DNA of 64,000 nt from an uncultured SAR86 cluster bacterium (GTDB lineage Bacteria > Pseudomonadota > Gammaproteobacteria > Magnimaribacterales > AG-339-G14): NCBI GenBank assembly GCA_902524805.1, contig CABZES010000005.1:24121-88120 (forward strand), given 5' to 3'. Shown piece by piece: positions 19,793-47,645 of this stretch. The position numbers and the translations under genes are program-made. How positions within the stretch are numbered: position 1 is the first letter of the stretch; each line of letters starts with the position of its first letter. The notes beneath the pieces were generated by a model, which was not told the origin of the DNA, searched no databases, and saw only the letters and a program-made list of their open reading frames with translations.

Positions 19793-19975
19793 ATGATCGA
19801 TCAAAAATTACTAGATATTTTAATATGTCCAGTTTCAAAGGATTCTCTTATCCTGGTGGGAGAAGAGCTATTTTCTAGGAAGGGAATGTTGGCATATCCT
19901 ATAAGAGACGGCATACCCGTAATGTTAGAAAACGAAGCTAGGAAATTATCTAAAGATGATCTCAAAGGTATTTAA
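19793..19975 (+). CDS. Trm112/YcaR-family small protein (UPF0434)
   Basis: 60 aa with [11 protein letters not shown]...[11 protein letters not shown], characteristic of the Trm112p-like family. Confidence 0.8.
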
Positions 19976-32944: not shown

Positions 32945-34246
32945 ATGAAAGAAAAAATTAAAAAATTAAGAAACTATATTTTTTTTAAACTATATAAAGT
33001 TCTTATATCTTTTGAAAAATTTAGAAATAAAGGGTTTGCTTTAGATATTCTTTCTCCAGACTTTATCAAAGATCCTTACACGACATATTCAACTATGCGT
33101 TCTAAAAAACCTATTTATTATTCAGCACCGACTTTTTTATATTGGGTTACGAAAATGGACTTTGTTCAAGAAATGCTCAGAGATAAAAAATTCAGCGTTG
33201 ATGATAGAAAATATTCCATTGCCAAAAGAAGAAGAAGGGAGCTTATCAAAGATGGCAGAGAGATAATGTTAGATCAATTTGATAATCCAAGTATTTTAAA
33301 ATTGGATCCCCCAGATCATTCAAGAATTAGGAAGTTAGTTTCTTATGGTTTTACAAATAGATATATATCTTCACTTGAGTCCGAAATAAAAGAAACTATC
33401 AATGATTGTTTGGATAGAACTCATAACAAAGATTCGTTTGATTTAATTGATTCTTTAGCAAAACCTCTTCCTGCAATAGTTATTGCTAAGATGATGGGCT
33501 TGCCAAAAGAAGACTTAACTCAATTTCAAAATTGGTCTGAAGATTTATTACAAGAGGTTGGCGGAATAAGTTCTAATGCAATTCAAAGAAAACAAGCTAG
33601 GGATGCTTATGAAGAACTAATTAGATATTTTGAAAAAAAAATAATAGAAAGAAAAGATAACCCTGGAGAAGACTTCATAGGTAAATTAATACAAGCTGAA
33701 GAAGAGGGCGATAAATTAAATGTTAAAGAAATGTTTGGAACTTGTTTGCTTTTGCTCGTTGCTGGCCACGAAACAACAACTAGATTGATTGGAAATGGTT
33801 TGTATACTTTATTTAAACACCCAGAGCAGTTTAATTATTTAAAAGATAACTTTGAATTAATACCAAATGCAATTGAAGAAATAATGCGTTATGAACCTCC
33901 TGTCCACGCAACGGTTAGATTTGCTTATGACGACATAATTTATGATGATAAAAAATTCAAAAAGGGAACTCCTTTCGCAATAAGCATTGCTGGAGCCAAT
34001 AGAGATCCATCGGCAAATAAAAATCCAAATGAATTTGATATTAAAAGAGAGAATATTAAGCATGTTTCTTTCGGCTATGGACCTCATATGTGTATTGGAG
34101 CTCATTTAGCTAGAATGGAAACAAAACTTGCCTTTGAAGCGCTTTTTGAGAGATTTCCAAAAATGGAATTACTTGATAACGAACCCGAATGGGGAAGAAA
34201 TTTTATTTTTAGAGGTTTCGATCACCTACAAATTAAACCAAATTAA
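32945..34246 (+). CDS. Cytochrome P450
   Basis: 433 aa with I-helix LLLVAGHETTT, ExxR (EEIMRYEPP) and heme-Cys loop FGYGPHMCIGAHLA. Confidence 0.92.
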   Translation: MKEKIKKLRNYIFFKLYKVLISFEKFRNKGFALDILSPDFIKDPYTTYSTMRSKKPIYYSAPTFLYWVTKMDFVQEMLRDKKFSVDDRKYSIAKRRRRELIKDGREIMLDQFDNPSILKLDPPDHSRIRKLVSYGFTNRYISSLESEIKETINDCLDRTHNKDSFDLIDSLAKPLPAIVIAKMMGLPKEDLTQFQNWSEDLLQEVGGISSNAIQRKQARDAYEELIRYFEKKIIERKDNPGEDFIGKLIQAEEEGDKLNVKEMFGTCLLLLVAGHETTTRLIGNGLYTLFKHPEQFNYLKDNFELIPNAIEEIMRYEPPVHATVRFAYDDIIYDDKKFKKGTPFAISIAGANRDPSANKNPNEFDIKRENIKHVSFGYGPHMCIGAHLARMETKLAFEALFERFPKMELLDNEPEWGRNFIFRGFDHLQIKPN

Positions 34247-35197: not shown

Positions 35198-35752
35198 TTA
35201 TTTATAAAAAATAATTAAAGATGCATAAGTGCAAAAAATAAGAGAGGCTGAGATGGCTTGTACGTTTCTATCGATTTCAATTTGTTTTCTAAATAATGAA
35301 ATTTTTATTGGCGGTACGCCATTTACATCATTCAATTTTCCGTCATAAATAGGCATAAAAATTAAGGCAAACATAAAACTTAATAACCAAACGTAAAGAA
35401 TTATTATAGAAATTAATAAGTTCATTGCCGACGGAATCATCCAAAGTAAGACCAAAACTAAGACACCTGAAGCAACCAAAGCATTCACCTGCCATACCAA
35501 ATGAAATCTAGCGTGGCCAGTCCATAATGGATTAGTTGCGTGCGACTCATTAAAGTCAATTAGGGGAGCAATCAAAGCCAATCCTAAACATAAAGTAGAA
35601 AGAATTACCTTAGCTATAAATATTGATTCTAAGTTTGAAAAAAGCAAAGCCCAAATAGACCATAGAATAGTTAAGGCCACCGCTTTTCCAAAATTATCTT
35701 GTGCTTGTAAAGAAAAGGCAAATAATTTACTTCTTTTTTGGTTTTCTAACAT
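35198..35752 (-). CDS. Uncharacterised membrane protein with NPxW-x2-HAR-x-HLVW and MPxYDG motifs (paralogue B, N-terminally extended)
   Basis: 184 aa with a TAATG overlap on the upstream FAH gene. Homologous to the 31300..31722 product. Confidence 0.7.
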   Translation of the reverse strand: MLENQKRSKLFAFSLQAQDNFGKAVALTILWSIWALLFSNLESIFIAKVILSTLCLGLALIAPLIDFNESHATNPLWTGHARFHLVWQVNALVASGVLVLVLLWMIPSAMNLLISIIILYVWLLSFMFALIFMPIYDGKLNDVNGVPPIKISLFRKQIEIDRNVQAISASLIFCTYASLIIFYK

Positions 35753-36660
35753 TAATCTTCATCCTTTGGCAAAAAGCCTTTGAACATGTCTGGAAGAAAA
35801 TCTGCTCTTGAATGATCGGATACTCGAACACATTTATTTTCCATTTCTCCTAGGCCTTCAATTGTAGTTTTGAGAATATCTCCATCTTTAAGAAATATAC
35901 CTTGTGTTGCACCAACTCCTGCAGGCGTACCAGTCCAAATTGTATCTCCTACTTTGAGGGTCACAATCTCAGAAAGATAGGAGATGATAGTTGGTACATC
36001 AAAAATTAAGTCGTTGGTGTTGTCTTTCTGCATTATTTTTCCATTAAGCTTACATTCAAGGTCGAGACTTTTGTAATCATTAAGAGAATCTGGTGACACT
36101 AAATATGGTCCCATGGGGCCATAAGTATCAAAAGATTTTCCTAGATTAAACATTGGTGGCTGAGTAGCAAATTGAGCAGGGCGATCAGAAATATCTTGTC
36201 CAATACACATTCCTGCTACATGATTCCACCCATCTTCTTTTTTTATGTCTTTTCCCTCTTTTCCTATAACAACTACTAGCTCAGCTTCATAATCGACAAA
36301 ATCACTACGCATTTCAACATTAGCATTCGGCCCAACAAAACATGAAGTATGTTTTGTGAACACCATAGGAACTTCTGGAATTTCCATGCCACCTTCTTCT
36401 GCATGCCCTCTATAATTCAAACCTACCGCATACGAGTTTCTACTATTTGGAACTGGATTACCAAGTTCTATATCTGATAATTTTCCTGTTGGGGATATTT
36501 CTCCAAGACTGGACGATAAGTTATTAATTTCATCTATTGAAGAAAGAGCCTGAACGCTATCAGAGCTAACAGAACCATTTGATATTTGCTCCAGATCATA
36601 ATAGTTATCTTCGTTTATTAAAATTGCTCTATTATTTGAGGTACCTAATTTAAAACTCAT
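35752..36660 (-). CDS. Fumarylacetoacetate-hydrolase (FAH) family hydrolase/hydratase/isomerase
   Basis: 302 aa with VGLNYRGHA, PMVFTKHTS, DYEAELVVVIGK and GTPAGVG, the hallmark FAH-family blocks. Confidence 0.88.
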   Translation of the reverse strand: MSFKLGTSNNRAILINEDNYYDLEQISNGSVSSDSVQALSSIDEINNLSSSLGEISPTGKLSDIELGNPVPNSRNSYAVGLNYRGHAEEGGMEIPEVPMVFTKHTSCFVGPNANVEMRSDFVDYEAELVVVIGKEGKDIKKEDGWNHVAGMCIGQDISDRPAQFATQPPMFNLGKSFDTYGPMGPYLVSPDSLNDYKSLDLECKLNGKIMQKDNTNDLIFDVPTIISYLSEIVTLKVGDTIWTGTPAGVGATQGIFLKDGDILKTTIEGLGEMENKCVRVSDHSRADFLPDMFKGFLPKDED

Positions 36661-36672
36661 AATTACTCCTTT

Positions 36673-38190
36673 TTAGTTATTAAATCCTATTCTTATTTTC
36701 AAATCTTCTATTAAATCTGAAAGTGATACGTTTTCATTTGTTGATCCAAAAATATACTTATCAGGTCGAACGATATAAACCTTATCTTCTTGAACCATTG
36801 TCGACATCCACATATTGGAATCAACAAGTTCACTATCCAAGATCAGTATTTTTGAATTAATGGAGGATAAGAATTTTTTTTCATCCTCAGATAAAATAAT
36901 ATCTTTTCTAGCAACAATTGAAAAATAATCTCCTAGTAGGATATCGCATCTTTCTGTTATTTCACCATCATCAATTTTAACTGGTTGAGGAAATAACTGC
37001 CCTGACATAGATTCAGGATTTGATTTTCCTTCATAGAAAATTCCTTTATCCAGAGGGGGAATAATAAAAGATCCATATCCTTTGGCAACCAATTCGGCTG
37101 GAACATCCTCTTTGTTTTCAGTATGGGCATATGCTTCCATCAAAAGACCAATTCCTAAAGAGTTTTCTACAATATATTTAGCATGCTCCTTTCTTTCAAT
37201 TTGATAATTCTCCAATAAATTAGGTAAATTGTATTCAAAATCCATAATTATTTTCCAAGCTAAATTTTCTGCATCTCTACAACCTGTCATCATGCCTTCG
37301 CCCATAAAGGGAGGATTTTGATGAGCAGAATCGCCAATCAAAAAACAATTATCCTTTTGAAACTCTTCAGCCAATACTGAATGAAATTGGTAAATAGCTT
37401 TTCTAAGTATTTTGTATTCTTTAGGTTGTAGCCAAGGTGAAAGAAGCTTATTTATATTTTTATCAGATGAAAATTCTTCAATATTATCATCATCATGGAT
37501 TTCAAATTCCCATCTTTTGAAAGGCGAATGAGTGGGTATAAAAGTGCCAATTCTTTTTGGATCGCAAATTTGAATTGCAAATTCGCCTAATTCTTTTTCA
37601 GTAAGCAATTCAATATCAATTATTATCCAATCTCTATCGTAATTTAAATCTTCCTGTTTAATATTTTTTAATTCTCTTACCTTGCTGTTAGCGCCGTCTG
37701 CACCAATTAAGTACTTAAATTCGTAATTAATGGTTTCATTGGTGTTTAAATTTTTAATAGAACAGCTTGATTCATTTGAATCATTTATTTCTAACAATTC
37801 ATGTTCAACAAGAATGTCACAGCTTGAGTTTAATAATTTATTTCTTATCTCCCTATCAGTATAAGGTTGATGAAAAAACCTCATAGGAGGCCAACCGTTT
37901 GGGGTATTTAAACCTTTCATAGTCATTGGTTCGCCAATGAACTCTAAATTTTCATTGACAAAACCTGCTCCTCCAGGTGCATCGCTGTTTTTATAATATA
38001 TATTTTCTAAATCTAGCGATTGATGCATTCGCATGCCTTGGTCACTAATACTGACAGCTCTAGGAAGAGGGTAAATATCTTTTTCTTTATCAATAGCTAA
38101 TACTTTTAGCCCGTATTTTTCTAGCTTCAGAGCCATGAAACTTCCTACTGGCCCCAATCCAACAACTACTGCATCGTATTTTACATCCAT
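36673..38190 (-). CDS. FAD-dependent aromatic-ring hydroxylase (MhpA/PcpB-like flavoprotein monooxygenase)
   Basis: 505 aa with the GxGxxG dinucleotide fold (VVVGLGPVGS), GADG and GDSAHQNPPFMGEGMMTGCRDAENLAWK. Confidence 0.88.
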   Translation of the reverse strand: MDVKYDAVVVGLGPVGSFMALKLEKYGLKVLAIDKEKDIYPLPRAVSISDQGMRMHQSLDLENIYYKNSDAPGGAGFVNENLEFIGEPMTMKGLNTPNGWPPMRFFHQPYTDREIRNKLLNSSCDILVEHELLEINDSNESSCSIKNLNTNETINYEFKYLIGADGANSKVRELKNIKQEDLNYDRDWIIIDIELLTEKELGEFAIQICDPKRIGTFIPTHSPFKRWEFEIHDDDNIEEFSSDKNINKLLSPWLQPKEYKILRKAIYQFHSVLAEEFQKDNCFLIGDSAHQNPPFMGEGMMTGCRDAENLAWKIIMDFEYNLPNLLENYQIERKEHAKYIVENSLGIGLLMEAYAHTENKEDVPAELVAKGYGSFIIPPLDKGIFYEGKSNPESMSGQLFPQPVKIDDGEITERCDILLGDYFSIVARKDIILSEDEKKFLSSINSKILILDSELVDSNMWMSTMVQEDKVYIVRPDKYIFGSTNENVSLSDLIEDLKIRIGFNN

Positions 38191-38194
38191 GTTT

Positions 38195-39748
38195 TTATCT
38201 TAATTTCTTCAACGAGAGAAAAATGACAATGGTTAATAATACTATAGCTAATATGTAATACTTAAAAGCTTGAATCAAAATCCAAATGCTTATAAATATT
38301 GTCGATAATAGAGAAGGAGGATTATTAAATTCGTAATCACCTTCTAACCAAGGAGAACCCAACACGCTGCCTCCTTGTCTATCATCGCCATGAAGATAAG
38401 CATGAGCTGGATTCATATCGCCAACTACATCTCTTTCTTCATAAGAAGTAATTATTTTTTTCATTTTTTCAAATACTTCAGATTCAACTTCTGATAAATC
38501 ATTCTTTTCATAAGGATCTTTAATAATATTGAATAATTTATAAGATGCTGAAACAGGTATCAATTGAGGTTCAGACGAATACAATTTCCATTCACCATTG
38601 AACAAAGCTCTTTCATCAGAAATAACTCTTGAACCAATAAAAGCATTCTCTGGAGGAATTATTGTATTAGTTTTTAGGTTTACCCATTTATCTTTACCAT
38701 CAAATTTCATGTTATTTGAAATACTAATGCCTGATGCAGATAATAAGGTTGGTAAAATATCTTGCACAAAAAAGAATTGATCTGATTTTGATTTTTCAAT
38801 AACTCCTTTCCACCAAATGACAGCAGGGACTCTTATTCCGCCCTCAAGAGCTGAGGTTTTGCTTCCGTTCAAGCCTGCTGTACTCCCTTTGGCATTAATC
38901 AAGTTTGGAGCGATTACCTTTACTATTGGATCTATATCGAAAACAGGACCGTTATCACTAAAAAAAAGAACAATCGTTTCTTCTAAAATTCCTTCATCTT
39001 CAATTGCGTCAAGAATTTTTCCTATTTCAAAATCTAAGGCATTTACATTTGCTGCATAAACTTGATTTTTTTTATCATCAAGATAGGCAAATGATTCAAT
39101 ATTTTTAAGTGGGGCTTCGATAGGAGTATGAGGTGCGTTGAAAGCAACGTATAAAAATAGCGGACGATCCTTATCCTTGTTTTTAATTATATTTATTGCT
39201 TCATTGGCAATTAATTCCGTTGAGTATCCTTCTTCTTCTAAAGGTTTCCCATTTCTATGCCAATCTAATCGACCTGCTGCAGTATGATCAAAATATCCAA
39301 TTCCTCCAGTCATATGTCCATAGCTTGTTTCAAAGCCTCGATTAGTCGGCCAAAATTCTTTTTTAGCCATGCCAAGATGCCATTTACCTGATAATGCAGT
39401 TTGATATCCAGCTTCTTTAAAATATTGCGGCATAATTTTTAATTCGGGAGGCATACCTGTTTGTTCTGCAGCAGGATTCATGAAAGGTCTGACAACGCCA
39501 TGATTGAATATATGTAATCCTGTCAACATAGACGCCCTAGTGGGACTGCAAACAGGATTAGAATAAAATCTATTCATTTCCATCCCATCTTTAGCAAGCT
39601 GATCTATATTTGGAGTAGGTATATAGCCATCATGATAAGAAACATCACCCCAACCCAAATCATCAGTAAGAATAATTATCACATTCGGTTTCTCTAAAGA
39701 TAATAAATTTAACGAGCACACGAATAATGCAAGTAAAAAACAACGCAT
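38195..39748 (-). CDS. Cys-type (formylglycine) sulfatase, secreted, with a C-terminal hydrophobic anchor
   Basis: Signal peptide, metal site LTDDLGWGD, sulfatase signature CSPTRASMLTG and GKWHLG. The last ~45 aa form 1-2 hydrophobic helices. Confidence 0.9.
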   Translation of the reverse strand: MRCFLLALFVCSLNLLSLEKPNVIIILTDDLGWGDVSYHDGYIPTPNIDQLAKDGMEMNRFYSNPVCSPTRASMLTGLHIFNHGVVRPFMNPAAEQTGMPPELKIMPQYFKEAGYQTALSGKWHLGMAKKEFWPTNRGFETSYGHMTGGIGYFDHTAAGRLDWHRNGKPLEEEGYSTELIANEAINIIKNKDKDRPLFLYVAFNAPHTPIEAPLKNIESFAYLDDKKNQVYAANVNALDFEIGKILDAIEDEGILEETIVLFFSDNGPVFDIDPIVKVIAPNLINAKGSTAGLNGSKTSALEGGIRVPAVIWWKGVIEKSKSDQFFFVQDILPTLLSASGISISNNMKFDGKDKWVNLKTNTIIPPENAFIGSRVISDERALFNGEWKLYSSEPQLIPVSASYKLFNIIKDPYEKNDLSEVESEVFEKMKKIITSYEERDVVGDMNPAHAYLHGDDRQGGSVLGSPWLEGDYEFNNPPSLLSTIFISIWILIQAFKYYILAIVLLTIVIFLSLKKLR

Positions 39749-39788
39749 GAGTAGTTTCCCCTAGTAGTTACAAATTAGTATAGCTTAG

Positions 39789-40796
39789 TTAGCCGTTTCT
39801 ACTGTCGCCAAAAGTATCAAAATTAATGTCAGGTCCCCATTGTGACGGACCTGGTCCATCAGATTCTAGACCGTCTTCAGTAACATTAACGTCATTTGGA
39901 GGAATAGTATTGTCAAAGTAATCACCATCGGTTTGATGTTCATGTGTTTGTTTAAATGGACTTCTCCAATAATCAAATACTTGTGCTCCTTGATAGTGTC
40001 TTCCTACTCCCCATTCTAATTCATAATCAAATTCTTCTTTGTTTCGTTGTAAAATTTCATGACCTCTTAAAACATCATCAATTTGTAACATTTCAAAAGA
40101 AACATGATTTAAACCTGGCTTTCCTTCAGAAAGCATTGCAGGCAGCCAAAAGATTGTATGATGATCTGCTGGTTCGAGACCTTTGTCTAATCTAGCAAAA
40201 ATTCCCATCAATGGCGTATCGGGATTTTTTGGATCTCCTGCGTAAAGTTTGTCTGTTGCGATAATGCCTAAATGTTCGTTGTACCACTCAAGGGCAGCAG
40301 GTATATCATTCACATTGATTCCGTAATGACCAAATCTGACTATTGAGGGTGGAGCTCCTTTCACATATCTTTTTCTTTCATTTATTCTATTTATCTGACC
40401 ACCTTCATTGCTGGATTGAGGCACGAGAGCTTGATAATCGTCTCTGTCCTTAATACCAAAACAAACATCAACTCCAATTCCTTCCAAATCTTTGCCTCTA
40501 GAAATATATCCTCCACCTGGAGTTTTGAGTTCTTCGACATCAGAAAAAGCATCGGTTTTACTAATTTTTTCTAAATCCTCCATGGAAGAAGCAACATAAG
40601 TCGCCCCAAGAAATTTTTTTTCACCTTTTTTACAAACCTCTATAAAAGGCTGAGGGCCATCACCTCGCATAATTAACACATCATCAGTTTTTTCAACTGT
40701 GTGCATTCCAAAGTGCAATAAAAATTGCTCTTGGATATCTAAATCAGGACATTGCAATGTGCAATATTGAACTCCTATAGCTTTTATTACTGGCAT
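39789..40796 (-). CDS. Type I extradiol ring-cleavage dioxygenase (VOC superfamily, two-domain)
   Basis: 335 aa with His contexts HYGINV and NHVSFEM, and a GVGRHYQGAQVFDYWRSP block resembling the BphC/C23O G.GRH....F.Y motif. Confidence 0.78.
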   Translation of the reverse strand: MPVIKAIGVQYCTLQCPDLDIQEQFLLHFGMHTVEKTDDVLIMRGDGPQPFIEVCKKGEKKFLGATYVASSMEDLEKISKTDAFSDVEELKTPGGGYISRGKDLEGIGVDVCFGIKDRDDYQALVPQSSNEGGQINRINERKRYVKGAPPSIVRFGHYGINVNDIPAALEWYNEHLGIIATDKLYAGDPKNPDTPLMGIFARLDKGLEPADHHTIFWLPAMLSEGKPGLNHVSFEMLQIDDVLRGHEILQRNKEEFDYELEWGVGRHYQGAQVFDYWRSPFKQTHEHQTDGDYFDNTIPPNDVNVTEDGLESDGPGPSQWGPDINFDTFGDSRNG

Positions 40797-41596
40797 TATT
40801 TTTCCTCCATTAATTTTAATGCTTCTTCTTTTACTTCTCCTCCAAAAGTACCCATCATATGTACTAGTGGTGGTGGAAGAAGATTTGTTACAGCTTTATC
40901 AAAAAATTCTAAATCTTTAACTTTTTGATACCAATTATTTATTTTTGGTCTTTTGTCTTTGCTGAATGCTTCAGAAAGAGATAAATGATCAAAACGAAGA
41001 ATGTAAGGAAGAGTGCAGGCATCTGCTAAACCAAACTTATCTCCTGCAATCCATCCACTATCTTCAATAATATTCTCCAAATGGTCCAAAAATTCTCCCG
41101 CTTTTTTTAATGAATTTATTACAATTGGCGCTTCTATACCTTCTTCCATGGTTTCTTTTCTTGCTTGTCTTTTAACAGGATCTGGAATGCTATCTAAATC
41201 TGCTTGTTTTTCTTCATCAGACTTATCCATTTGTAAGCGTCTGACAGCAATGCCATAAGTTATGGGACCAGTATATTGTTGAAAATTATCAATTTCTTTC
41301 ATCCATAATCTCACTTTATGGATATCTTCAGGGGAAGAGGGCTTTGCTGGAATTTCTGGGAATGCATCATCTAGATATTCTAGAATTAGATTTGACTCAA
41401 TTAAAACTCCATTATTAGTCACCAAGGTAGGAACGACATGATTTGGATTAAGTTTTACATATTCAGGATCATGCTGCTCTCCAGCTAACAAGTTAACTTC
41501 TTTAGATTTATATGGAAGTTTTTTTAATTCCAGAATTAATCTTACTTTTTGTGAACAAGTTGAAGGTCCATGATGATAAAGAGTTAAATTCGTCAT
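40796..41596 (-). CDS. Glutathione S-transferase family protein
   Basis: 266 aa with N-terminal thioredoxin-like GST domain (LYHHGPSTCSQKVRL...NPNHVVPTL...ESNLILEYL). Its stop overlaps the dioxygenase start (TAATG). Confidence 0.85.
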   Translation of the reverse strand: MTNLTLYHHGPSTCSQKVRLILELKKLPYKSKEVNLLAGEQHDPEYVKLNPNHVVPTLVTNNGVLIESNLILEYLDDAFPEIPAKPSSPEDIHKVRLWMKEIDNFQQYTGPITYGIAVRRLQMDKSDEEKQADLDSIPDPVKRQARKETMEEGIEAPIVINSLKKAGEFLDHLENIIEDSGWIAGDKFGLADACTLPYILRFDHLSLSEAFSKDKRPKINNWYQKVKDLEFFDKAVTNLLPPPLVHMMGTFGGEVKEEALKLMEEK

Positions 41597-41617: not shown

Positions 41618-41630
41618 TGACATAGTGTCA
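41618..41630. promoter_or_regulatory. Small palindrome TGACA-tag-TGTCA overlapping a TTGACA -35-like hexamer
   Basis: Read directly from the sequence. Lies 22 nt upstream of the GST operon start codon (minus strand), in the 206-bp divergent region. Confidence 0.3.
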
Positions 41631-41693: not shown

Positions 41694-41721
41694 AATGTGA
41701 CAATTGACAATGTGTCACATT
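41694..41721. promoter_or_regulatory. Inverted repeat AATGTGACA-N10-TGTCACATT (candidate operator) enclosing a TTGACA hexamer
   Basis: Perfect 9-bp arms. The spacer attgacaatg contains TTGACA. Lies about 80 nt upstream of the first tandem receptor gene. Confidence 0.35.
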
Positions 41722-41802: not shown

Positions 41803-44295
41803 ATGATCAATTTCAAACGCATTGTTACGCTCGTCGTACTTTTTGCTACACCTATGGCTATTGCACAAGATGCAGTATTCGAAGAACTGACAGTTACAGC
41901 TCAGAAGAGGACTTCTACTGTAATGGATACCGCAGCAGCCATTGCTGCTATTTCTGGAGATGATCTCCAAGAAAGAGGAATCAGAAATATTAATGACCTG
42001 GACCAACTTTCACCTGATCTTGTAATAGGTGGAGAAGGAATTCAAAGGAAACAAATTAGAATTAGAGGGGTTGGAACTTATAGTTTTGATATTGCTGCCG
42101 ACCCATCTGTAGCAATTGTTATTGATGGTGTTGCTCAACCTAGAGCGACAACTAATACATCATCTTTCACTGATCTAGAACGAATTGAAATTCTTAAAGG
42201 TCCTCAAGGTGCGATTTATGGTGTTAACTCTATTGGTGGAATAATTAATATGGTCACTAAGAAACCAGTTGGCGGACAAGCCGGAAGAGTTATTCTTAAA
42301 ACAGGTGATAACGGTCAAGAAGGTCTTTCTTTTACTTACGAAAATGATTTAAGTAATTCTGTGTCAGGTAGATTTCACCTTTCATCTTCTCAAGATGATG
42401 GTTTATCGTTTGATGAAGTAACTGGTTTGAACGATGGAATTGATCAACAATCATTGAGAGCAACTTTTTATGGCTCTACCGATTCAGGAATGAATTGGAC
42501 CGCTGCTTTTGGGCATAGTAAAACTAATGTCGATGCGCAAATAATGGAACAATTATTCACTTGTAATACCTTAAATGGTGCCTCTCACTGGTTACCGGTT
42601 TTCTCTGCAGGAGCTACAAATCCTAATAATATTTGTACTACTTTAGCTCCTCCTACATCACAAAATACGCTAGGTGAGGTAAATCTTGAAAATGCTCTTG
42701 TTAAAGCTGCGTACGCAAGTCAAGAATCACAACCTTTATCGGTTCCTGGTTTTGCATCTATGGAAGGCATGACTGCTAGTCTAAACATGAGTAAAGATTT
42801 TGATGATTATAGTGTTACAACAATCATTGGAGCTACCAAAACCAATTCTGCTGAATTAAGAGACTTTGATGCAACAACTGCAGCTGCTCTTACACAAGGT
42901 CATCACTCAATGACTAATACAACAAGTATTGAAGTGAGAATTGATTCGGATGATTCAGTCAAATATCCATGGTCCGTTGGAGTTTATGGCTTAAGAGATC
43001 AAGGTTATAGAGAAGACAACTTTACTTCTTTCCCTCAAAGTGTACAAAACGTTTTATTTGGTTTTGGTGCAGCAGGAGCAGCAGTAGGTTTAGCTCCAGC
43101 ACCACCTAATTACGCTGCTATTTTATCTGCCATGCAAGCTTGTGTTGTTTCTGGTGATTGTCAGGCTTACTACGCTGGTGGTGCTAATCCGGTAGCAAGA
43201 ACAGCTGCAATGGTGGGTGGTCAATTTGTTACCCAACAAGATGTTGATAATTTAGTTAATGCAGTAACTGGAAAATTTGACAATATAGCAAGAATGGGGA
43301 TCAAAACATCTTCATCCGCAGTATTTGGAAATATTAAATTTCCTTTAGCCGATAACTTAGAATTATTTGTTGGTGGAAGATACTCTATACACGATAAACC
43401 TTATACTTATGAAGGAAAGACTAATGCTACAAATGCCCCATTAGTTGTAGTACCTTACACAACAAGTGGAGGTCTAACTGCAAGAGAATTCGATCCAAAA
43501 GTTACACTTGAATATACACAAGGAGATAGTTTGTCTTGGGTAACATATTCAACTGCTTACAAATCTGGAGGTCCTAGATTTGCCCAATGGACAAAAGCTA
43601 CAGCTGATATCACTTACGCACAAGAAGAACTTGAAATGATTGAAGTTGGTTACAAAACTGACCTTAATGGTGGAAGCAGCCAACTAGAGTTTACTGCGTA
43701 TAATTACGACTATACTGACAATCAACAACTATTGGTTTGTGTCCAGAATGGATCTCCGAGTGGTTGTGTAGTTACGGGTGATGCAATTGTTCAAGGACTT
43801 GATTTAACATATCGAACTTATTTATCCGATAAAACATCTTTTGGCGGAACTTACGCATTTGTGGATGCGACTTGGGATAGATTCTGTGATACAGCTGCTG
43901 CTCCTGCGACAGAAGCAAATCCATGCGGAATTAACAGAAAAGGTCAAACCTTACCTTTTTCAGCTGAAAATAATTTAAGCATGAATATTCAGCATATAGA
44001 AAATATGGACATGGGTGAATTAACTTTGACGGCTGCTGTCTCTTATAAAGATGAATATTCAGTTACGTTAGGTAAATGGCCTGGTGTTTCAACTGTCGAA
44101 GATTTAACTAAACTTAATTTGAGTGCAGAGTTAGCTTCGCCAGATGGCTGGAACTTGAGCTTAGTTTGTACAAACTGTACTGACGAAATATACCAAGCAA
44201 ATGGTTTGCAAGGTGTCCGAGCACAAGGTGGTGGTTACCGTTATGCTAATGCTGAACGAAGAAGAATTGGACTTAGTTTAGAAACTAATTTCTAA
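41803..44295 (+). CDS. TonB-dependent outer-membrane receptor (tandem paralogue 1)
   Basis: 830 aa with SD GGGGGAG, signal peptide, plug motifs (IRIRGVG, IVIDGVAQPR, LERIEILKGPQGAIYG) and C-terminal ...LETNF. Confidence 0.9.
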   Translation: MINFKRIVTLVVLFATPMAIAQDAVFEELTVTAQKRTSTVMDTAAAIAAISGDDLQERGIRNINDLDQLSPDLVIGGEGIQRKQIRIRGVGTYSFDIAADPSVAIVIDGVAQPRATTNTSSFTDLERIEILKGPQGAIYGVNSIGGIINMVTKKPVGGQAGRVILKTGDNGQEGLSFTYENDLSNSVSGRFHLSSSQDDGLSFDEVTGLNDGIDQQSLRATFYGSTDSGMNWTAAFGHSKTNVDAQIMEQLFTCNTLNGASHWLPVFSAGATNPNNICTTLAPPTSQNTLGEVNLENALVKAAYASQESQPLSVPGFASMEGMTASLNMSKDFDDYSVTTIIGATKTNSAELRDFDATTAAALTQGHHSMTNTTSIEVRIDSDDSVKYPWSVGVYGLRDQGYREDNFTSFPQSVQNVLFGFGAAGAAVGLAPAPPNYAAILSAMQACVVSGDCQAYYAGGANPVARTAAMVGGQFVTQQDVDNLVNAVTGKFDNIARMGIKTSSSAVFGNIKFPLADNLELFVGGRYSIHDKPYTYEGKTNATNAPLVVVPYTTSGGLTAREFDPKVTLEYTQGDSLSWVTYSTAYKSGGPRFAQWTKATADITYAQEELEMIEVGYKTDLNGGSSQLEFTAYNYDYTDNQQLLVCVQNGSPSGCVVTGDAIVQGLDLTYRTYLSDKTSFGGTYAFVDATWDRFCDTAAAPATEANPCGINRKGQTLPFSAENNLSMNIQHIENMDMGELTLTAAVSYKDEYSVTLGKWPGVSTVEDLTKLNLSAELASPDGWNLSLVCTNCTDEIYQANGLQGVRAQGGGYRYANAERRRIGLSLETNF

Positions 44296-44457: not shown

Positions 44458-46968
44458 ATGAATAAAACAATAAACTTAGTAATTATTTCTTTATTTGCTT
44501 TTGCATCTGTAGTTACTTCTCAATCTGCCGTGTATGAGGATTTGGTAGTAACAGCAACCAAAAAAGAATCTTCATTAATGGAAACTCCCGCGGCTATTGC
44601 GGCAATAGCTGGTGACGATCTTAACAATCGAGGTATTAGTGATATTTCTGGACTAAATCAGTTAACTCCTGACCTAGTGATTGCAGGAGAAGGTCACTCA
44701 AGAACAAATGTTAGGATTAGAGGTATAGGAACTTACGGGTTTACTTCTTCAGCTGACCCATCATCTGTTTTAGTAATAGATGGCGTAGCTCAACCAAGAA
44801 TATCTAGTGCAAAACATGCTTTTAGAGATTTAGAAAGAATTGAGATATTAAAAGGACCTCAAGGAGCGCTTTATGGGACTAATGCTTTGGGTGGAATTAT
44901 TAATATTGTAACCAGAAAACCTATTGGAGGAGAATCGGGTTCCTATTCTATAGCAACAGGAAATAATGACGATTCAGATATTTCTCTATCCCTTGAAACT
45001 GATTTAAGCGATTCTACGTCTGTAAGGATATCTCTTGCTCGTGGTTACGATGCTGGTTTAGCTTATGAAGAGTTAACTGGTCGTGACGATGGCGTTGAAT
45101 ATACTTTTGGAAGAGTAGCTCTTTTTGGCACTTACGAAAACGGAACAGAGTGGAGCTCTTCTTTTAGTCACTCCAAAGACAATCAATATGCTGCTGTTTC
45201 TGAACAAGACTTTTTATGTAACTCAACAAATGCTGCTACAGAGTTATTAATTGTTGCTGCAGTCGCTCCACTTGGCTCCGTGTTTTGTAAGACTGTTAAT
45301 AATAGTACAGCCAAATCAGACATTATAAAAAGAGGCCAAGCTGATTTAACTAATGCTGTAGTGAAAGCATCTCTAGCAAGTAAATATGGTCAACCAATGA
45401 ATATTCCCGGTTATAACTTCTCTGAATTAATGAATTTCAGTTACAACGCTAAAATGAGTTTGAACGATATGACTTTAACAGCTCTGTTAGGTTATAACAA
45501 AGTTAATTCTGGTGAAGAAAGAGATTTTGATGCCACTACAATAAATGCTTTAAATCAAGGTCATCACGCTTCTTCAGATTCTACGACGATAGAATTACGC
45601 TTAGATTCTGATCCCTCAATAAGAACTCCTTGGTCTGTTGGGCTATATGGAATGAGAGATCATGGTTACAGAGAAGATCACTTCACATCATTTGGGCTTG
45701 GAGTTCCAAACTTTATAAGTTTTGGTGCAGGAGCTTTTGCATATATTGCAGGTAATCCTGGCACTGCTATTTCATTGCAAACTGCTTCACTGCCACCTAA
45801 TGCTCTTACAATTGGAACATGGTTACAAAATTGTGTGACTAATAATAGTCAATGCCAAGCTTATGCAACTCCTGCTGTGGCAAGACCAGCTATAACGGGA
45901 AGACAATACATAGACCAATATGATGTCAATAACTTTACTGGAGCTTTCACCATTCCTGGAGTCAACTTAGCAAGAGTTGGGCTAAAAACTCAAGCAACAG
46001 CTGTAAATGGAAATATAACTTTTCCTTTAGCCGATAATATTAATTTGCTTGTAGCTGGAAGATATTCTGTTCATGACAAACCATATACCTACGAAGGTAA
46101 AACAAACAAAACTGGACAAGCCTTATTAGTCGTAGAAGATTTTTTAGTTCGTCATGGAACAACAGAAAAAGAATTTGATCCAAAATTGACTTTAGAAATG
46201 ACAAATGGCGAATCTCTTTCTTGGCTGACATTTGCTACTGGGTATAAATCAGCGGGAATAGGATTTGCTAATTGGTCTCCTGCTGATGCAAAAAAACCTT
46301 ATGCAGCAGAGAAGTTAGAAATGATTGAACTTGGATACAAAACTACTCTTTCTGAAGGCAGCGCTCAATTAGAAGCCATTTTATATAACTACGATTATAC
46401 AGATCATCAGCAACTTCTAGTTTGTAGTACAGCTCAAGGCCCTGCTGGTTGTGTAGTAAATGGTGACGCAACATTACAAGGTATTGACTTGGCTTATAGA
46501 ACCTATGTTACTGATAATACAAGCCTAGGTTTGTCTTATGCGTTTACGGATGCAACTTGGGATAAATTTATCGATACAGCATGTTGTGGTGTCGGATCTG
46601 CTTATGATAGATCAGGACAACAATTACCATTTGTTGCAGAAAATAATTTACTTTTAAATTTAGAACATATTCAAAACCTTGAAATAGGTGATGTAACTTA
46701 CAATTTAAATTTATCCTACAAGGATGAATACTCAGTTCAATTAGATAGATGGGAAGGAGTTACTCTGGTAAGCGACTTAGTGTTAGTAAATGCCAATATT
46801 TCATTAATGACTCAAGGAGGAGTTGAAATTTCAACTTTTTGTACAAATTGTTCAGACGAAGAATATTTATCTGTTGCATTAATGGGAGTTAGAGCCCAAG
46901 GTGGAGGCGCAAGAACTGCCTATGCTGAAGGCAGAAGAATAGGCTTGCAAATATCTTCTGATTTTTAA
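44458..46968 (+). CDS. TonB-dependent outer-membrane receptor (tandem paralogue 2)
   Basis: 836 aa, collinear with the 41803 product along its whole length, including the plug motifs and conserved Cys pairs. C-terminal ...ISSDF. Confidence 0.9.
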   Translation: MNKTINLVIISLFAFASVVTSQSAVYEDLVVTATKKESSLMETPAAIAAIAGDDLNNRGISDISGLNQLTPDLVIAGEGHSRTNVRIRGIGTYGFTSSADPSSVLVIDGVAQPRISSAKHAFRDLERIEILKGPQGALYGTNALGGIINIVTRKPIGGESGSYSIATGNNDDSDISLSLETDLSDSTSVRISLARGYDAGLAYEELTGRDDGVEYTFGRVALFGTYENGTEWSSSFSHSKDNQYAAVSEQDFLCNSTNAATELLIVAAVAPLGSVFCKTVNNSTAKSDIIKRGQADLTNAVVKASLASKYGQPMNIPGYNFSELMNFSYNAKMSLNDMTLTALLGYNKVNSGEERDFDATTINALNQGHHASSDSTTIELRLDSDPSIRTPWSVGLYGMRDHGYREDHFTSFGLGVPNFISFGAGAFAYIAGNPGTAISLQTASLPPNALTIGTWLQNCVTNNSQCQAYATPAVARPAITGRQYIDQYDVNNFTGAFTIPGVNLARVGLKTQATAVNGNITFPLADNINLLVAGRYSVHDKPYTYEGKTNKTGQALLVVEDFLVRHGTTEKEFDPKLTLEMTNGESLSWLTFATGYKSAGIGFANWSPADAKKPYAAEKLEMIELGYKTTLSEGSAQLEAILYNYDYTDHQQLLVCSTAQGPAGCVVNGDATLQGIDLAYRTYVTDNTSLGLSYAFTDATWDKFIDTACCGVGSAYDRSGQQLPFVAENNLLLNLEHIQNLEIGDVTYNLNLSYKDEYSVQLDRWEGVTLVSDLVLVNANISLMTQGGVEISTFCTNCSDEEYLSVALMGVRAQGGGARTAYAEGRRIGLQISSDF

Positions 46969-47030: not shown

Positions 47031-47645
47031 ATGGCATCAAATAAATTAAGCTCAAAAGAAAAATTAATAGATGCCGCTGTTTATCATTTAAATACAGAAG
47101 GCTTAAATAACTTTACTGCAACAAGCTTAACTAGAGCGGCTAATTTAGGATATGGAACTTTTTATAAATACTTTTCTTCAACTGAAGATGTTTTAGAAGA
47201 CGCCATAAAAAAAAGAATATCTGATTGGTCTCACTTAATCTCAGAGTCTAATAAAAATGAACCAGATAGGTTGTTTGCTTTTATAGAAGCTTTTTATAAA
47301 ACAATAATAGAATTAAGTAATAATTTATCAATGAGGTGGCTTCTGGAAAAACCTAATTATTTTGTTGAAGTTTATTTTGAATTAACGTTTCCCCATGCAA
47401 AAAAGGATGTCGAATCTGCCGTTGAAACAAATCAAATTTCTTCTGATTATTTAAATAATTTTGAAACCATTTTTAAACTTTATTTATGGCAGATGTGTGG
47501 AGCCTTATCTATGGTCGATGAGGGATCAAATTATAAAGATATCGCTTTAACTTTAATAAAATTAATTATTCCTTATGGCACAGATGAAGTTAAAATCGAA
47601 CAAATTTGTAAGCTTTTAGAGGAGAGAAATAGTAATAAAATTTAA
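47031..47645 (+). CDS. TetR/AcrR-family transcriptional regulator
   Basis: 204 aa with N-terminal HTH: KEKLIDAAVYHLNTEGLNNFTATSLTRAANLGYGTFYKYFSSTEDVL. Confidence 0.82.
   Translation: MASNKLSSKEKLIDAAVYHLNTEGLNNFTATSLTRAANLGYGTFYKYFSSTEDVLEDAIKKRISDWSHLISESNKNEPDRLFAFIEAFYKTIIELSNNLSMRWLLEKPNYFVEVYFELTFPHAKKDVESAVETNQISSDYLNNFETIFKLYLWQMCGALSMVDEGSNYKDIALTLIKLIIPYGTDEVKIEQICKLLEERNSNKI

What the first reader, a model, noticed from the sequence alone, without database searches (positions are those of the whole stretch)
35198..41596. Six-gene operon embedding a secreted Cys-type sulfatase in an aromatic hydroxylation / ring-cleavage gene set
Seen in the sequence: six minus-strand genes are packed with 1-nt TAATG overlaps or gaps of 4-40 nt.
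- The order is GST, two-domain extradiol (VOC) dioxygenase, sulfatase, FAD aromatic hydroxylase, FAH-family hydrolase, His-motif membrane protein.
- The sulfatase has a signal peptide, the CSPTRASMLTG motif and a C-terminal anchor.

Established knowledge:
- Flavoprotein phenol hydroxylases, extradiol dioxygenases, GST-type isomerases or dehalogenases, and FAH C-C hydrolases are the building blocks of catechol, hydroquinone and gentisate-type lower pathways.
- Formylglycine sulfatases remove sulfate esters.

Inference: the operon could desulfate and then mineralise sulfated (possibly halogenated) phenolics such as algal phenol sulfates. I do not know of a described pathway with a type I sulfatase wired directly into a ring-cleavage operon. 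No formylglycine-generating enzyme or anSME is visible in the window.
Basis: partly seen in the sequence, partly recalled or inferred. Interest (0 to 1): 0.72.

Follow-up and report, generated by a model that had tools for sequence, protein, structure and literature searches.

The report
Sulfatase built into aromatic-degradation operon
In the abundant ocean bacterium SAR86, a membrane-tethered periplasmic sulfatase sits inside a regulated operon for hydroxylating and opening aromatic rings, next to outer-membrane importers, which suggests that these cells strip sulfate from sulfated phenolic compounds and then eat the carbon skeleton.

Summary
Six minus-strand genes (35198-41596) encode a GST, an extradiol dioxygenase, a formylglycine sulfatase, an FAD aromatic hydroxylase, an FAH-family enzyme and a five-helix His-motif membrane protein. 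They are joined by 1-nt overlaps or gaps of 4-40 nt.

The window is SAR86. The sulfatase has a complete catalytic set, a signal peptide and a C-terminal anchor. The dioxygenase keeps all extradiol catalytic residues and models as a catechol-type enzyme.

A 13-bp palindrome, TGACA-N3-TGTCA, occurs only twice in 64 kb. Both copies lie between the operon and a divergent TonB receptor, and the site is conserved upstream of GST in every same-order relative.

Across 46 SAR86 species genomes the sulfatase orthologue lies beside FAD-hydroxylase, dioxygenase, GST and FAH genes in 30, in four different arrangements. In 16 genomes it sits alone: either next to transsulfuration genes or between two TonB receptors. 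The dioxygenase-hydroxylase module also exists without the sulfatase.

The most likely function is TonB import, periplasmic desulfation, then cytoplasmic ring hydroxylation and cleavage. The substrate is unknown, halogenation is unsupported, and no maturation enzyme is in the window.

I found no published description of this wiring. It is a new variant built from known parts and is moderately interesting.

The parts
40796..41596 (-). GST, 266 aa, first gene of the operon. The N-terminus is zeta-class-like with an S-T-C-S motif at residues 12-15. The likely role is a glutathione-dependent isomerase or thiol transferase.
   Evidence: Pfam GST_N and GST_C. NCBIfam maiA matches the N-terminal part only (84.8 bits, cut-off 171). 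The nearest solved structure is LigF, E 4.5e-17.
39789..40796 (-). Two-domain type I extradiol ring-cleavage dioxygenase (VOC fold), 335 aa.
   Evidence: H157, H212/H213, H231, H267, Y276 and E286 are invariant across 34 homologues. The AlphaFold model has pLDDT 92.8. Foldseek top hits are 3b59, AphC, LapB, BphC, C23O, HPCD and HsaC, at E 1e-21 to 1e-17.
38195..39748 (-). Cys-type formylglycine (type I) sulfatase, 517 aa. It has a Sec-type signal peptide and a C-terminal membrane anchor, so the catalytic domain is predicted to face the periplasm.
   Evidence: Pfam Sulfatase 2.7e-57. The CSPTRASMLTG motif and the catalytic D29, D30, R71, K122, H124, H207, D265, N266 and K297 align to human ARSB. 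Hydropathy shows segments at 1-19 and 477-517.
36673..38190 (-). Group A FAD-dependent aromatic hydroxylase, MhpA-like subfamily, 505 aa.
   Evidence: Pfam FAD_binding_3 1e-43. NCBIfam NF004829 scores 352 bits, below the 390 cut-off. GxGxxG, GADG and GD motifs are visible in the sequence. Nearest solved structures are VibO and PnpA, about E 1e-15.
35752..36660 (-). FAH-superfamily enzyme of the short HpcE/FAHD type, 302 aa. The likely role is a hydrolase, decarboxylase or isomerase acting on a ring-fission product.
   Evidence: Pfam FAA_hydrolase 1e-60. Nearest solved structures are 6v77 'putative HpcE' (3.5e-55), HpcE and diketo-deoxyrhamnonate hydrolase. No equivalog cut-off is reached.
35198..35752 (-). 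Membrane protein of unknown function, 184 aa, weakly DUF6640-like. It has five predicted TM helices and invariant D66, H71, N74-P75, W77, H80, R82 and H84.
   Evidence: Alignments A3 and A6. The model has pLDDT 83 and no structural match in the PDB (best E 0.85). A homologue scores a weak PF20345 hit, E 1.6e-4. A shorter family member also follows FAH in some rearranged SAR86 clusters: L025, L088, L089.
41618..41630 (.). Candidate operator palindrome TGACAtagTGTCA. It lies about 22 nt upstream of the GST start codon and overlaps promoter-like hexamers.
   Evidence: It is one of only two matches in 64 kb (expected 0.06). It is conserved upstream of GST in same-order loci of other species. Promoter-like sites lie at 41631-41603 and 41623-41595.
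41705..41717 (.). Second copy of the palindrome, TGACAatgTGTCA, on the TonB-receptor side of the divergent intergenic region.
   Evidence: The equivalent site lies in the TBDR-SDR intergenic region of L012, L093, L091, L094 and L120.
41803..44295 (+). TonB-dependent receptor transcribed divergently from the operon. It is the proposed outer-membrane importer of the substrate.
   Evidence: Pfam Plug 2e-18. A TBDR is adjacent to the sulfatase in arrangement types A, B2, C and D.
44458..46968 (+). Second TonB-dependent receptor, in tandem with the first.
   Evidence: Pfam Plug 6e-16. Orthologues are adjacent to the operon in L010, L012 and L093.
47031..47645 (+). TetR-family regulator. It is a candidate binder of the palindrome; this is inferred, not shown.
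   Evidence: Pfam TetR_N. TetR-TBDR-operon order is conserved in all longer same-order loci.

Best explanation
The six genes form one regulated transcription unit in a SAR86 bacterium. Together with the divergent TonB-dependent receptors and a TetR regulator, they make a catabolic locus for a sulfated aromatic (phenolic) compound.

Proposed sequence of events:
1. The sulfate ester crosses the outer membrane through the TonB receptor.
2. The formylglycine sulfatase is exported by its signal peptide and held on the inner membrane by its C-terminal helix. It removes the sulfate in the periplasm and frees a phenol.
3. The phenol enters the cytoplasm. The route is unknown; the DUF6640-like membrane protein is one candidate.
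4. The MhpA-like FAD monooxygenase hydroxylates the phenol ortho to the existing hydroxyl, giving a catechol.
5. The type I extradiol dioxygenase opens the ring.
6. The zeta-like GST and the HpcE/FAHD-type FAH enzyme process the ring-fission product towards central metabolites.

SAR86 is reported to lack sulfate assimilation, so the sulfatase would serve carbon acquisition rather than sulfur nutrition.

What is shown: gene order, intact catalytic residues, topology signals, conserved linkage and a conserved operator. What is inferred: co-transcription, the substrate class, the order of reactions, and the roles of the GST, FAH and membrane protein.
For: **Operon packing and family assignments.**

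**Sulfatase.** The catalytic set is complete and aligns to ARSB. A signal peptide and a C-terminal anchor are present and conserved across 50-99% identical orthologues.

**Dioxygenase.** All extradiol ligands and catalytic residues are invariant. The confident model matches catechol extradiol dioxygenases.

**Hydroxylase.** The hydroxylases in every arrangement belong to the same MhpA-like NCBIfam subfamily.

**Linkage.**
- 30 of 46 species-representative SAR86 genomes place the sulfatase orthologue within 0-3 genes of FADmo, VOC, GST or FAH genes, in four arrangements.
- These include translationally coupled FADmo-TetR-sulfatase (L088/L089) and VOC-GST-sulfatase (L038).
- In an NJ tree, the aromatic-cluster contexts are basal in both sulfatase clades and the isolated contexts are derived.

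**Regulation.** The palindrome TGACA-N3-TGTCA occurs only in the operon/TBDR intergenic region (2 matches against 0.06 expected). It is conserved in front of GST in same-order loci of other species.

**TBDR adjacency.** A TonB receptor is adjacent in four arrangement types.

**The enzyme set works as a unit elsewhere.** FADmo, GST, FAH, VOC plus a transporter recur without a sulfatase in other Pseudomonadota. This supports the four enzymes acting as one pathway to which SAR86 added a sulfatase.

**Physiology and candidate substrates.**
- SAR86 lacks sulfate assimilation (PMC11582366).
- Sulfated phenolic acids, coumarins and bromophenols occur in marine algae (PMC6278426, PMC9322897, PMC12432060).
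Against: - In 16 of 46 species the orthologous sulfatase (74-80% identical) has no aromatic neighbour. In 11 it follows DSBA-PALP-cystathionine-lyase genes, at a spot where the window has no sulfatase. In 5 it lies between two TBDRs.
- In one single-cell genome the sulfatase and the FADmo|VOC-SDR module are about 40 kb apart on the same contig.
- VOC orthologues (62-73% identical) mostly occur as FADmo|VOC-SDR with no sulfatase, GST or FAH (25 of 38 metagenome loci).
- The nearest solved sulfatases include carbohydrate 4-O-sulfatases (ARSB, S1_19 carrageenan sulfatases) at scores similar to true arylsulfatases.
- A zeta-type GST plus an FAH hydrolase is typical of para-diol pathways, which fits awkwardly with a catechol-type extradiol enzyme.
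- No inner-membrane transporter of a known family and no FGE or anSME is in the window.
- SAR86 genomes carry many GST and catE copies (PMC11582366), which raises the chance of neighbourhood coincidences.
- There are no expression or biochemical data.
Confidence: 0.55

Rival explanations
1. The sulfatase is a self-contained periplasmic desulfation module for amphipathic or other non-aromatic sulfate esters: sulfoglycolipids, sterol or alkyl sulfates, or sulfated sugars. It is co-located and perhaps co-regulated with aromatic genes inside a flexible catabolic island, but it does not feed them the same molecule.
For: - The orthologue is retained alone in 16 of 46 species, and in 11 of these it sits at a different spot in the same chromosomal neighbourhood.
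- About 24.5 kb of the window (roughly 27.0-51.5 kb) is absent from those genomes, which marks it as a variable island.
- The membrane anchor would suit amphipathic substrates.
- The nearest solved structures include GalNAc-4-sulfatase and carrageenan sulfatases.
- The published SAR86 analysis proposes sulfoglycolipids (PMC11582366).
- The window also has an MBL-type alkylsulfatase-like gene and a TauD-family gene, so organosulfur processing is broader here.
Against: - The sulfatase is linked with the same four enzyme families in four rearranged layouts, across sulfatase divergence down to 50% identity.
- It is translationally coupled to FADmo, TetR or GST in three of those layouts.
- The only conserved operator lies upstream of the first gene, with none before the sulfatase.
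- No glycoside hydrolase, lipase or steroid-core gene is in the operon.
Confidence: 0.27
2. The locus handles halogenated phenol sulfates, or detoxifies algal defence metabolites. The GST would act as a PcpC/LinD-like reductive dehalogenase and the dioxygenase would cleave a (chloro)hydroquinone.
For: - The GST N-terminus has a zeta-like S-T-C-S motif and a maiA-like N-terminal match.
- PnpA, a para-hydroxylating monooxygenase, is among the nearest solved hydroxylases.
- Brominated phenol sulfates exist in red algae (PMC9322897).
Against: - The dioxygenase has the classical C-terminal-domain ligand arrangement.
- Its 50 best structural matches are all catechol extradiol enzymes, not PcpA/LinE-type.
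- No maleylacetate reductase is present.
- The nearest solved GST is LigF rather than a dehalogenase.
- Nothing in the sequence specifically indicates halogen chemistry.
Confidence: 0.08
3. The juxtaposition is a chance product of genome streamlining and of the high copy number of GST and dioxygenase genes in SAR86. It has no functional meaning.
For: - GST and catE genes are reported as multi-copy in SAR86 (PMC11582366).
- There is another GST at 57312-58319.
- The sulfatase has clearly moved between contexts.
Against: - A crude Poisson estimate gives about 7e-5 for four such genes within 8 kb.
- The linkage persists in both deep sulfatase clades despite rearrangement.
- Start and stop codons overlap.
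- A conserved operator is shared with the TBDR promoter region.
Confidence: 0.05

Closest known systems
Pseudomonas aeruginosa arylsulfatase AtsA (PDB 1hdh) and the ats/sulfate-starvation loci
   Same: It is a Cys-type formylglycine sulfatase with the same catalytic residues, acting on aryl sulfate esters. Sequence match E 4e-47.
   Different: From established knowledge, AtsA is a soluble enzyme used to scavenge sulfur, and it is encoded with sulfonate/sulfate-ester transport genes. Here the enzyme has a signal peptide and a membrane anchor, sits in an aromatic ring-cleavage operon, and belongs to a lineage reported to lack sulfate assimilation.
Bacteroidota polysaccharide utilisation loci with S1 sulfatases (for example the carrageenan S1_19 enzymes 6bia, 6prm, 6b0k)
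   Same: The logic is shared: a TonB-dependent outer-membrane importer, a periplasmic sulfatase that unmasks the substrate, then downstream catabolic enzymes under a local regulator. Sulfatase sequence similarity is E 1e-50 to 1e-52.
   Different: There is no SusD and no glycoside hydrolase. The downstream enzymes are an aromatic hydroxylase and a ring-cleavage dioxygenase, not carbohydrate-active enzymes.
Phenol/hydroxyphenyl-acid meta-cleavage pathways (mhp and hpa/hpc types)
   Same: They share an MhpA-like FAD hydroxylase, an HpaD/BphC-like extradiol dioxygenase and an HpcE-like FAH-family enzyme.
   Different: No equivalog threshold is met. The semialdehyde dehydrogenase, hydratase, aldolase and MCP hydrolase are missing from the operon. 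A GST and a sulfatase are present instead.
Gentisate/homogentisate and pcp/lin hydroquinone pathways
   Same: They share an FAD hydroxylase, a zeta-class GST (isomerase or dehalogenase) and an FAH-family hydrolase as building blocks.
   Different: The ring-cleaving enzyme here is a catechol-type VOC extradiol dioxygenase, not a cupin gentisate/homogentisate dioxygenase or a PcpA/LinE-type enzyme. There is no maleylacetate reductase.
Human steroid sulfatase (STS; 1p49, 8eg3)
   Same: It is a formylglycine sulfatase held on a membrane by hydrophobic helices. Sequence match about E 1e-32 to 1e-33.
   Different: From established knowledge, the STS helices are internal and the enzyme is in the ER. 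Here the anchor is C-terminal, and the context is bacterial aromatic catabolism.

Membership tests
Type I (formylglycine, S1) sulfatase | Sulfatase domain (PF00884) above the curated threshold | tested here: met
   194.8 bits against a cut-off of 25
Type I (formylglycine, S1) sulfatase | C/S-x-P-x-R formylglycine motif followed by the auxiliary LTG | tested here: met
   C67-S-P-T-R71-A-S-M-L-T-G. C67, P69, R71 and T76-G77 are invariant in 11 orthologues.
Type I (formylglycine, S1) sulfatase | Metal-binding and catalytic residues (DD, K/H pair, H, DN, K) | tested here: met
   D29, D30, K122, H124, H207, D265, N266 and K297 align with the corresponding ARSB residues and are invariant or nearly invariant.
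Type I (formylglycine, S1) sulfatase | A maturation enzyme (FGE or anSME) in the genome | not testable with these tools
   None among window ORFs of 120 aa or more. The rest of the genome is not available.
Type I (formylglycine, S1) sulfatase | Assignment to a SulfAtlas S1 subfamily (aryl- versus carbohydrate- versus choline-sulfatase) | not testable with these tools
   Only proxies are available. The best PDB hits are ARSB (190 bits), S1_19 carrageenan sulfatases (173-182) and PAS (164). The NCBIfam arylsulfatase model scores 148, below its 481 cut-off, and choline sulfatase scores 87, below 433.
Type I two-domain extradiol ring-cleavage dioxygenase (VOC superfamily) | Two-domain paired beta-alpha-beta-beta-beta fold | tested here: met
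   The model has pLDDT 92.8. TM-scores to AphC, LapB, BphC, C23O, HPCD and HsaC are 0.66-0.74, at E 1e-17 to 1e-21.
Type I two-domain extradiol ring-cleavage dioxygenase (VOC superfamily) | 2-His-1-carboxylate metal ligands plus the catalytic His/His/Tyr in the C-terminal domain | tested here: met
   H157, H231 and E286, plus H212/213, H267 and Y276, are invariant in 34 sequences. Their spacing equals BphC H146/H210/E260 and H195/H241/Y250 (BphC numbering recalled from memory).
Type I two-domain extradiol ring-cleavage dioxygenase (VOC superfamily) | Membership of a characterised equivalog (HpaD, catechol 2,3-dioxygenase, BphC, HsaC) | tested here: not met
   The best score is HpaD at 32.8 bits against a cut-off of 321. 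The substrate class is therefore not assignable.
Group A flavoprotein aromatic hydroxylase (MhpA-like subfamily NF004829) | FAD_binding_3 domain with GxGxxG, DG and GD fingerprints | tested here: met
   PF01494 1e-43. GLGPVG, GADGANS and GDSAH are visible in the sequence.
Group A flavoprotein aromatic hydroxylase (MhpA-like subfamily NF004829) | Score above the curated subfamily cut-off | tested here: not met
   352.4 bits against a cut-off of 390. The hydroxylase paired with VOC-SDR elsewhere passes, at 455.7.
FAH superfamily (HpcE/FAHD-type) | FAA_hydrolase domain, and a specific equivalog | tested here: inconclusive
   The domain is met at 205.5 bits. No equivalog cut-off is met: the diketo-deoxyrhamnonate hydrolase model scores 189 against 500, and HpaG-C scores 165 against 276.
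Zeta-class GST / maleylacetoacetate isomerase | Full-length match above the maiA cut-off | tested here: not met
   84.8 bits against 171, covering the N-terminal 97 residues only. The protein is 266 aa, and its nearest solved structure is LigF.
Gentisate pathway operon | Cupin-type gentisate 1,2-dioxygenase | tested here: not met
   No cupin in the operon. The ring-cleaving enzyme has a VOC fold.
Polysaccharide utilisation locus | SusC/SusD pair and glycoside hydrolases | tested here: not met
   TonB receptors are present, but there is no SusD or GH family among the annotated ORFs between about 25 and 55 kb.

The most novel reading that the evidence does not exclude
Sulfated aromatic compounds (algal and animal aryl sulfates) are a regular carbon source for SAR86, one of the most abundant bacterial lineages of the surface ocean. 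SAR86 has evolved a dedicated locus for them: TonB import, periplasmic desulfation, then ring cleavage. In this locus a membrane-tethered formylglycine sulfatase acts purely as an unmasking step for carbon, not for sulfur. The conserved DUF6640-like His-motif membrane protein would be a new component of that pathway, for uptake of the freed phenol or for redox support.
Probability: 0.35. Interest if true: 0.72.

Novelty: new variant of a known kind. Interest (0 to 1): 0.55.

Why it matters
**Why this could matter.**
- SAR86 makes up several percent of surface-ocean bacteria, and its substrates are largely inferred.
- A conserved, regulated locus that couples a sulfatase to aromatic ring cleavage points to a concrete, testable substrate class: aryl sulfates such as sulfated phenolic acids, coumarins, flavonoids or bromophenols.
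- This class is rarely considered in marine carbon budgets.
- It would release inorganic sulfate while feeding aromatic carbon to a cell that is reported not to assimilate sulfate.

**Effect on published work.** It revises the published guess that SAR86 arylsulfatases act on sulfoglycolipids.

**Practical leads.**
- It flags a conserved unknown membrane protein family.
- It identifies a candidate operator that could be used to define the regulon.

**If the rival reading holds.** The locus still documents how a sulfatase gene moves as a module between contexts in a streamlined genome.

Tried and rejected
- **Promoter and terminator scan** across 34.9-42.0 kb. Promoter-like hits (38) were barely above shuffles (29.7 +/- 5.8), and terminator-like hits (6 against 3.8) were inside coding sequence. 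It is uninformative in this AT-rich DNA, apart from hexamers that overlap the operator.
- **Rfam** over 30-52 kb: no match.
- **Membrane protein.** Pfam gave only sub-threshold DUF6640. Foldseek against the PDB gave nothing (best E 0.85). The third fold-search job was not used for BFVD.
- **Protein homologue search with the dioxygenase** timed out twice before succeeding.
- **Sequence search of the dioxygenase against the PDB** was weak (best 8.5e-8), so fold comparison was needed.
- **HPPD or hydroquinone (PcpA/LinE)-type dioxygenase:** considered and rejected. The ligand spacing and the top 50 fold matches are those of catechol extradiol enzymes.
- **Steroid-sulfate reading:** considered and rejected for this operon. 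There are no Kst/Ksh/HsaAD-type genes, and HsaC scores only 18.9 bits.
- **Sulfur-scavenging role:** considered and rejected. SAR86 is reported to lack sulfate reduction.
- **Outside SAR86**, the nearest sulfatase relatives (33-46% identical; Bacteroidota, Kribbella, cyanobacteria) show no linked aromatic genes.
- **Literature searches** for a sulfatase combined with an extradiol dioxygenase or ring cleavage found nothing relevant.

Full report
**Source and observation.**
- The window is AT-rich (about 33% GC).
- Its sulfatase has 88%-identical database relatives named SAR86 cluster bacterium and 50-82% relatives in dozens of SAR86 single-cell and metagenome genomes.
- GST/VOC and FAH/membrane-protein junctions share one base in a TAATG. 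The other gaps are 40, 4 and 12 nt.
- Pfam and NCBIfam confirm the five enzyme families. The sixth protein has no family above threshold.
- The identical sulfatase is found on six independent Tara/JGI contigs with the same neighbours.

**The sulfatase.**
- It has C67-SPTR-ASMLTG.
- In an alignment to human arylsulfatase B, all metal-binding and catalytic positions align: D29, D30, R71, K122, H124, H207, D265, N266 and K297.
- Hydropathy shows an N-terminal signal-like segment (1-19) and a C-terminal hydrophobic anchor (477-517) ending in KKLR. Both are conserved down to 50% identity. The other four enzymes have no hydrophobic segment.
- The catalytic domain is therefore predicted to be periplasmic and tethered to the inner membrane (inference).
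- Solved relatives do not settle specificity: ARSB 190 bits, S1_19 carrageenan sulfatases 173-182, P. aeruginosa arylsulfatase 164.
- There is a family-specific insertion of about 14 residues between the DNG and GSK motifs.
- No FGE or anSME family is found in any window ORF of 120 aa or more.

**The dioxygenase and other cytoplasmic enzymes.**
- *Dioxygenase.*
  - It hits Pfam Glyoxalase only in its C-terminal half, and sequence search of the PDB is weak.
  - In alignments of 12 and 34 homologues, H157, H212/H213, H231, H267, Y276 and E286 are invariant.
  - Their spacing equals that of the BphC ligands H146/H210/E260 and catalytic H195/H241/Y250 (numbering from memory).
  - The AlphaFold model is confident (pLDDT 92.8).
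  - Its 50 best Foldseek matches are all two-domain catechol-type extradiol dioxygenases: 3b59, AphC, LapB, BphC, C23O, HPCD and HsaC.
- *Hydroxylase.*
  - It carries the three group A flavoprotein fingerprints.
  - It belongs to the MhpA-like NCBIfam subfamily, just under the cut-off (352 against 390).
- *FAH protein.* It is of the short HpcE/FAHD type.
- *GST.*
  - It has a zeta-like N-terminus with S-T-C-S, but a divergent C-terminal half.
  - Its nearest solved relative is LigF.
- None of the four enzymes reaches an equivalog threshold, so no substrate can be read off.

**The membrane protein.**
- It models as five TM helices plus a short hairpin (pLDDT 83), with no structural match in the PDB.
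- About a thousand marine homologues exist, all unnamed, and a few are tagged DUF6640.
- Invariant residues are D66, H71, N74-P75, W77, H80, R82 and H84.
- A shorter paralogue lies in the window at 31300-31722, directly after a nitroreductase-family gene.
- A member of the same family follows the FAH gene in some rearranged SAR86 clusters: L025, L088 and L089.
- This FAH-partner linkage suggests it belongs to the pathway. Its function is unknown.

**Regulation.**
- The 207-bp region between GST and the divergent TonB receptor contains two copies of the palindrome TGACA-N3-TGTCA.
- These are the only two matches in the 64-kb window (expected 0.06; none of 100 shuffles reached two).
- Among 131 fetched loci the exact motif occurs, apart from one unrelated locus, only in same-order loci. 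There it lies immediately upstream of GST and in the TBDR-side intergenic region.
- An alignment shows an invariant AAGTGACA-N3-TGTCA about 25-35 nt before the GST start, in species whose GSTs are only 52-97% identical.
- It overlaps promoter-like hexamers.
- No copy lies before the sulfatase or any internal gene.
- This is consistent with one transcription unit that starts at GST and shares a regulator with the TonB receptor. The conserved neighbouring TetR gene (47031-47645) is the obvious candidate (inference).

**Comparative genomics of the sulfatase.** A scan of one genome per species returned 46 informative SAR86 loci. I classified them by tblastn and by clustering of called ORFs.

| Type | Species | Layout |
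|---|---|---|
| A | 4 | Same order as the window, usually with an extra SDR gene before GST, which the window lacks |
| C | 9 | MMSDH(-), FADmo-TetR-sulfatase(+), RutE-like/VOC/GST(-), TBDR(+), FAH(+), sometimes followed by the membrane-protein paralogue; overlapping start and stop codons |
| D | 5 | The same cluster as C, with the sulfatase displaced by two genes |
| E | 12 | Sulfatase next to FADmo/FAH and a divergent short VOC-GST pair; in L038, VOC-GST-sulfatase is co-directional with a 1-nt overlap |
| B1 | 11 | No aromatic neighbour; the sulfatase follows DSBA-PALP-cystathionine-lyase genes |
| B2 | 5 | No aromatic neighbour; the sulfatase lies between two TBDRs |

- In total, 30 of 46 species keep the sulfatase within 0-3 genes of the same four families.
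- In an NJ tree, the aromatic-cluster contexts are basal in both main sulfatase clades, and B1 and B2 are nested, that is, derived.
- Outside SAR86, relatives at 33-46% identity show no such neighbours.

**What the exceptions say.**
- B1 loci are syntenic with window 51.9-64 kb: AMP-ligases, TMEM164, DSBA, PALP and the Cys/Met-PLP enzyme. They carry the sulfatase between the PLP enzyme and a small ORF.
- In the window these two genes abut, with no sulfatase between them.
- B1 genomes lack roughly 24.5 kb of the window (about 27.0-51.5 kb). That segment holds the operon, both TBDRs, two P450s, TetR and other xenobiotic-type genes.
- The sulfatase gene is therefore mobile within the genome. It is kept even when this island is absent, so it cannot depend absolutely on this operon.

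**Comparative genomics of the dioxygenase.**
- A metagenome scan with the type A dioxygenase returned 38 loci.
  - 13 are type A.
  - 25 have a 62-73% identical dioxygenase in a minimal divergent module, FADmo | VOC-SDR. This sits among housekeeping genes and has no sulfatase, GST or FAH.
- One single-cell genome contig carries both the B1 sulfatase and this module, about 40 kb apart.
- In other Pseudomonadota, 54-57% identical dioxygenases sit with FADmo, GST, FAH, TetR, SDR, TBDR or MFS genes, again without a sulfatase.
- The hydroxylase/dioxygenase (+GST/FAH) set therefore behaves as a catabolic unit in its own right. Adding a sulfatase to it is a SAR86 feature.

**Interpretation.**
- The best-supported reading is a TonB-linked locus in which a periplasmic sulfatase unmasks a sulfated phenolic. 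The phenol is then hydroxylated to a catechol and cleaved.
- SAR86 is reported to lack sulfate assimilation and to carry many dioxygenase and GST genes. The same paper attributes its arylsulfatases to sulfoglycolipids, without noting this linkage (PMC11582366).
- Candidate substrates exist in the sea:
  - 4-(sulfooxy)benzoic acid, 4-(sulfooxy)phenylacetic acid and sulfated coumarins in Dasycladus (PMC6278426);
  - zosteric acid and sulfated flavonoids in eelgrass (PMC6389981);
  - lanosol disulfate in red algae (PMC9322897);
  - sulfated phenolics across seaweeds (PMC12432060).
- The weak HpaD/HpcE-like affinities of the dioxygenase and the FAH enzyme would suit a hydroxyphenyl-acid. This is a lead only.

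**Open problems.**
- A zeta-type GST plus an FAH hydrolase normally follows para-diol cleavage, not catechol extradiol cleavage.
- No known inner-membrane transporter is present.
- The maturation enzyme is unseen.
- The 16 isolated-sulfatase species show that the enzyme is useful on its own.
- Nothing supports halogenated substrates.

**Novelty and score.**
- Every part belongs to a known family. The logic, import then periplasmic desulfation then catabolism, is that of polysaccharide utilisation loci.
- Applying that logic to aromatic ring cleavage, with a conserved operator and an unknown membrane partner, was not found in the literature searched.
- I rate it a new variant of a known kind, with interest 0.55.

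Noticed in passing
window 19972-21264 (-), 21335-22459 (+), 22464-23294 (+): There is a metallo-beta-lactamase + Alkyl_sulf_dimr protein (type III alkylsulfatase-like, 430 aa), a family III CoA-transferase and a TauD/TfdA-family dioxygenase. The window therefore encodes three mechanistically different classes of sulfate-ester or sulfonate enzymes.
   Followed up: no
window about 27000-51500: About 24.5 kb is absent from the SAR86 species whose sulfatase follows the Cys/Met-PLP gene. The segment runs between a 138-aa ORF (26563-26979) and a 128-aa ORF (51523-51909). It looks like a flexible catabolic island: two P450s, two TBDRs, TetR, a nitroreductase, DoxX, SRPBCC, MBL, an esterase and the operon.
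   Followed up: partly
window 30740-31303 and 31300-31722 (+): A nitroreductase-family gene overlaps by 4 nt with a 140-aa paralogue of the operon's His-motif membrane protein. In rearranged clusters the nitroreductase homologue scores as RutE-type malonic semialdehyde reductase and sits next to the dioxygenase.
   Followed up: partly
L088 6233-7717 and 11550-12212 (and other type C/D loci): The rearranged clusters include a CoA-acylating methylmalonate/malonate-semialdehyde dehydrogenase (499 bits, above the 448.5 cut-off) and a RutE-type reductase (274 bits, above 152). This hints that a C3 aldehyde is a pathway product. I could not derive it from any standard ring-cleavage route.
   Followed up: no
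L010 7340-8113; also L012, L022, L023, L090-L096, L120, L127: In other species the same-order operon begins with an SDR gene before GST. The window lacks it and instead has an extra TonB receptor (41803-44295) abutting the operon. VOC-SDR adjacency is also kept in the sulfatase-free module.
   Followed up: partly
window 32945-34246 (+) and 47648-49015 (+): Two cytochrome P450 genes flank the operon region. Both are conserved in position in L010, L012 and L093. Their relation to the operon's substrate is unknown.
   Followed up: no
window 41803-44295 and 44458-46968: Both tandem TonB-dependent receptors match only the Plug domain in Pfam. No beta-barrel model passes, which suggests a divergent barrel family.
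   Followed up: no
window 57312-58319 (-) and 58337-60358 (-): A further GST (335 aa) and an M3 peptidase are inserted here, relative to the otherwise syntenic B1-type loci.
   Followed up: no
L035 10001-10975: In one MAG (CM1_5m.P123) the sulfatase match stops after about 325 residues and a separate ORF follows. This could be a frameshift, a pseudogene or an assembly error.
   Followed up: no
window sulfatase residues about 268-290 (within 38195-39748): There is a conserved insertion of about 14 residues between the DNG and GSK active-site motifs, relative to ARSB and an S1_19 sulfatase. It may shape the substrate pocket.
   Followed up: no
L043 9477-9962, L032 9486-9962, L041 8233-8724: A conserved 158-163-aa ORF with no Pfam family lies divergently upstream of the sulfatase in arrangement types D and E.
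   Followed up: no
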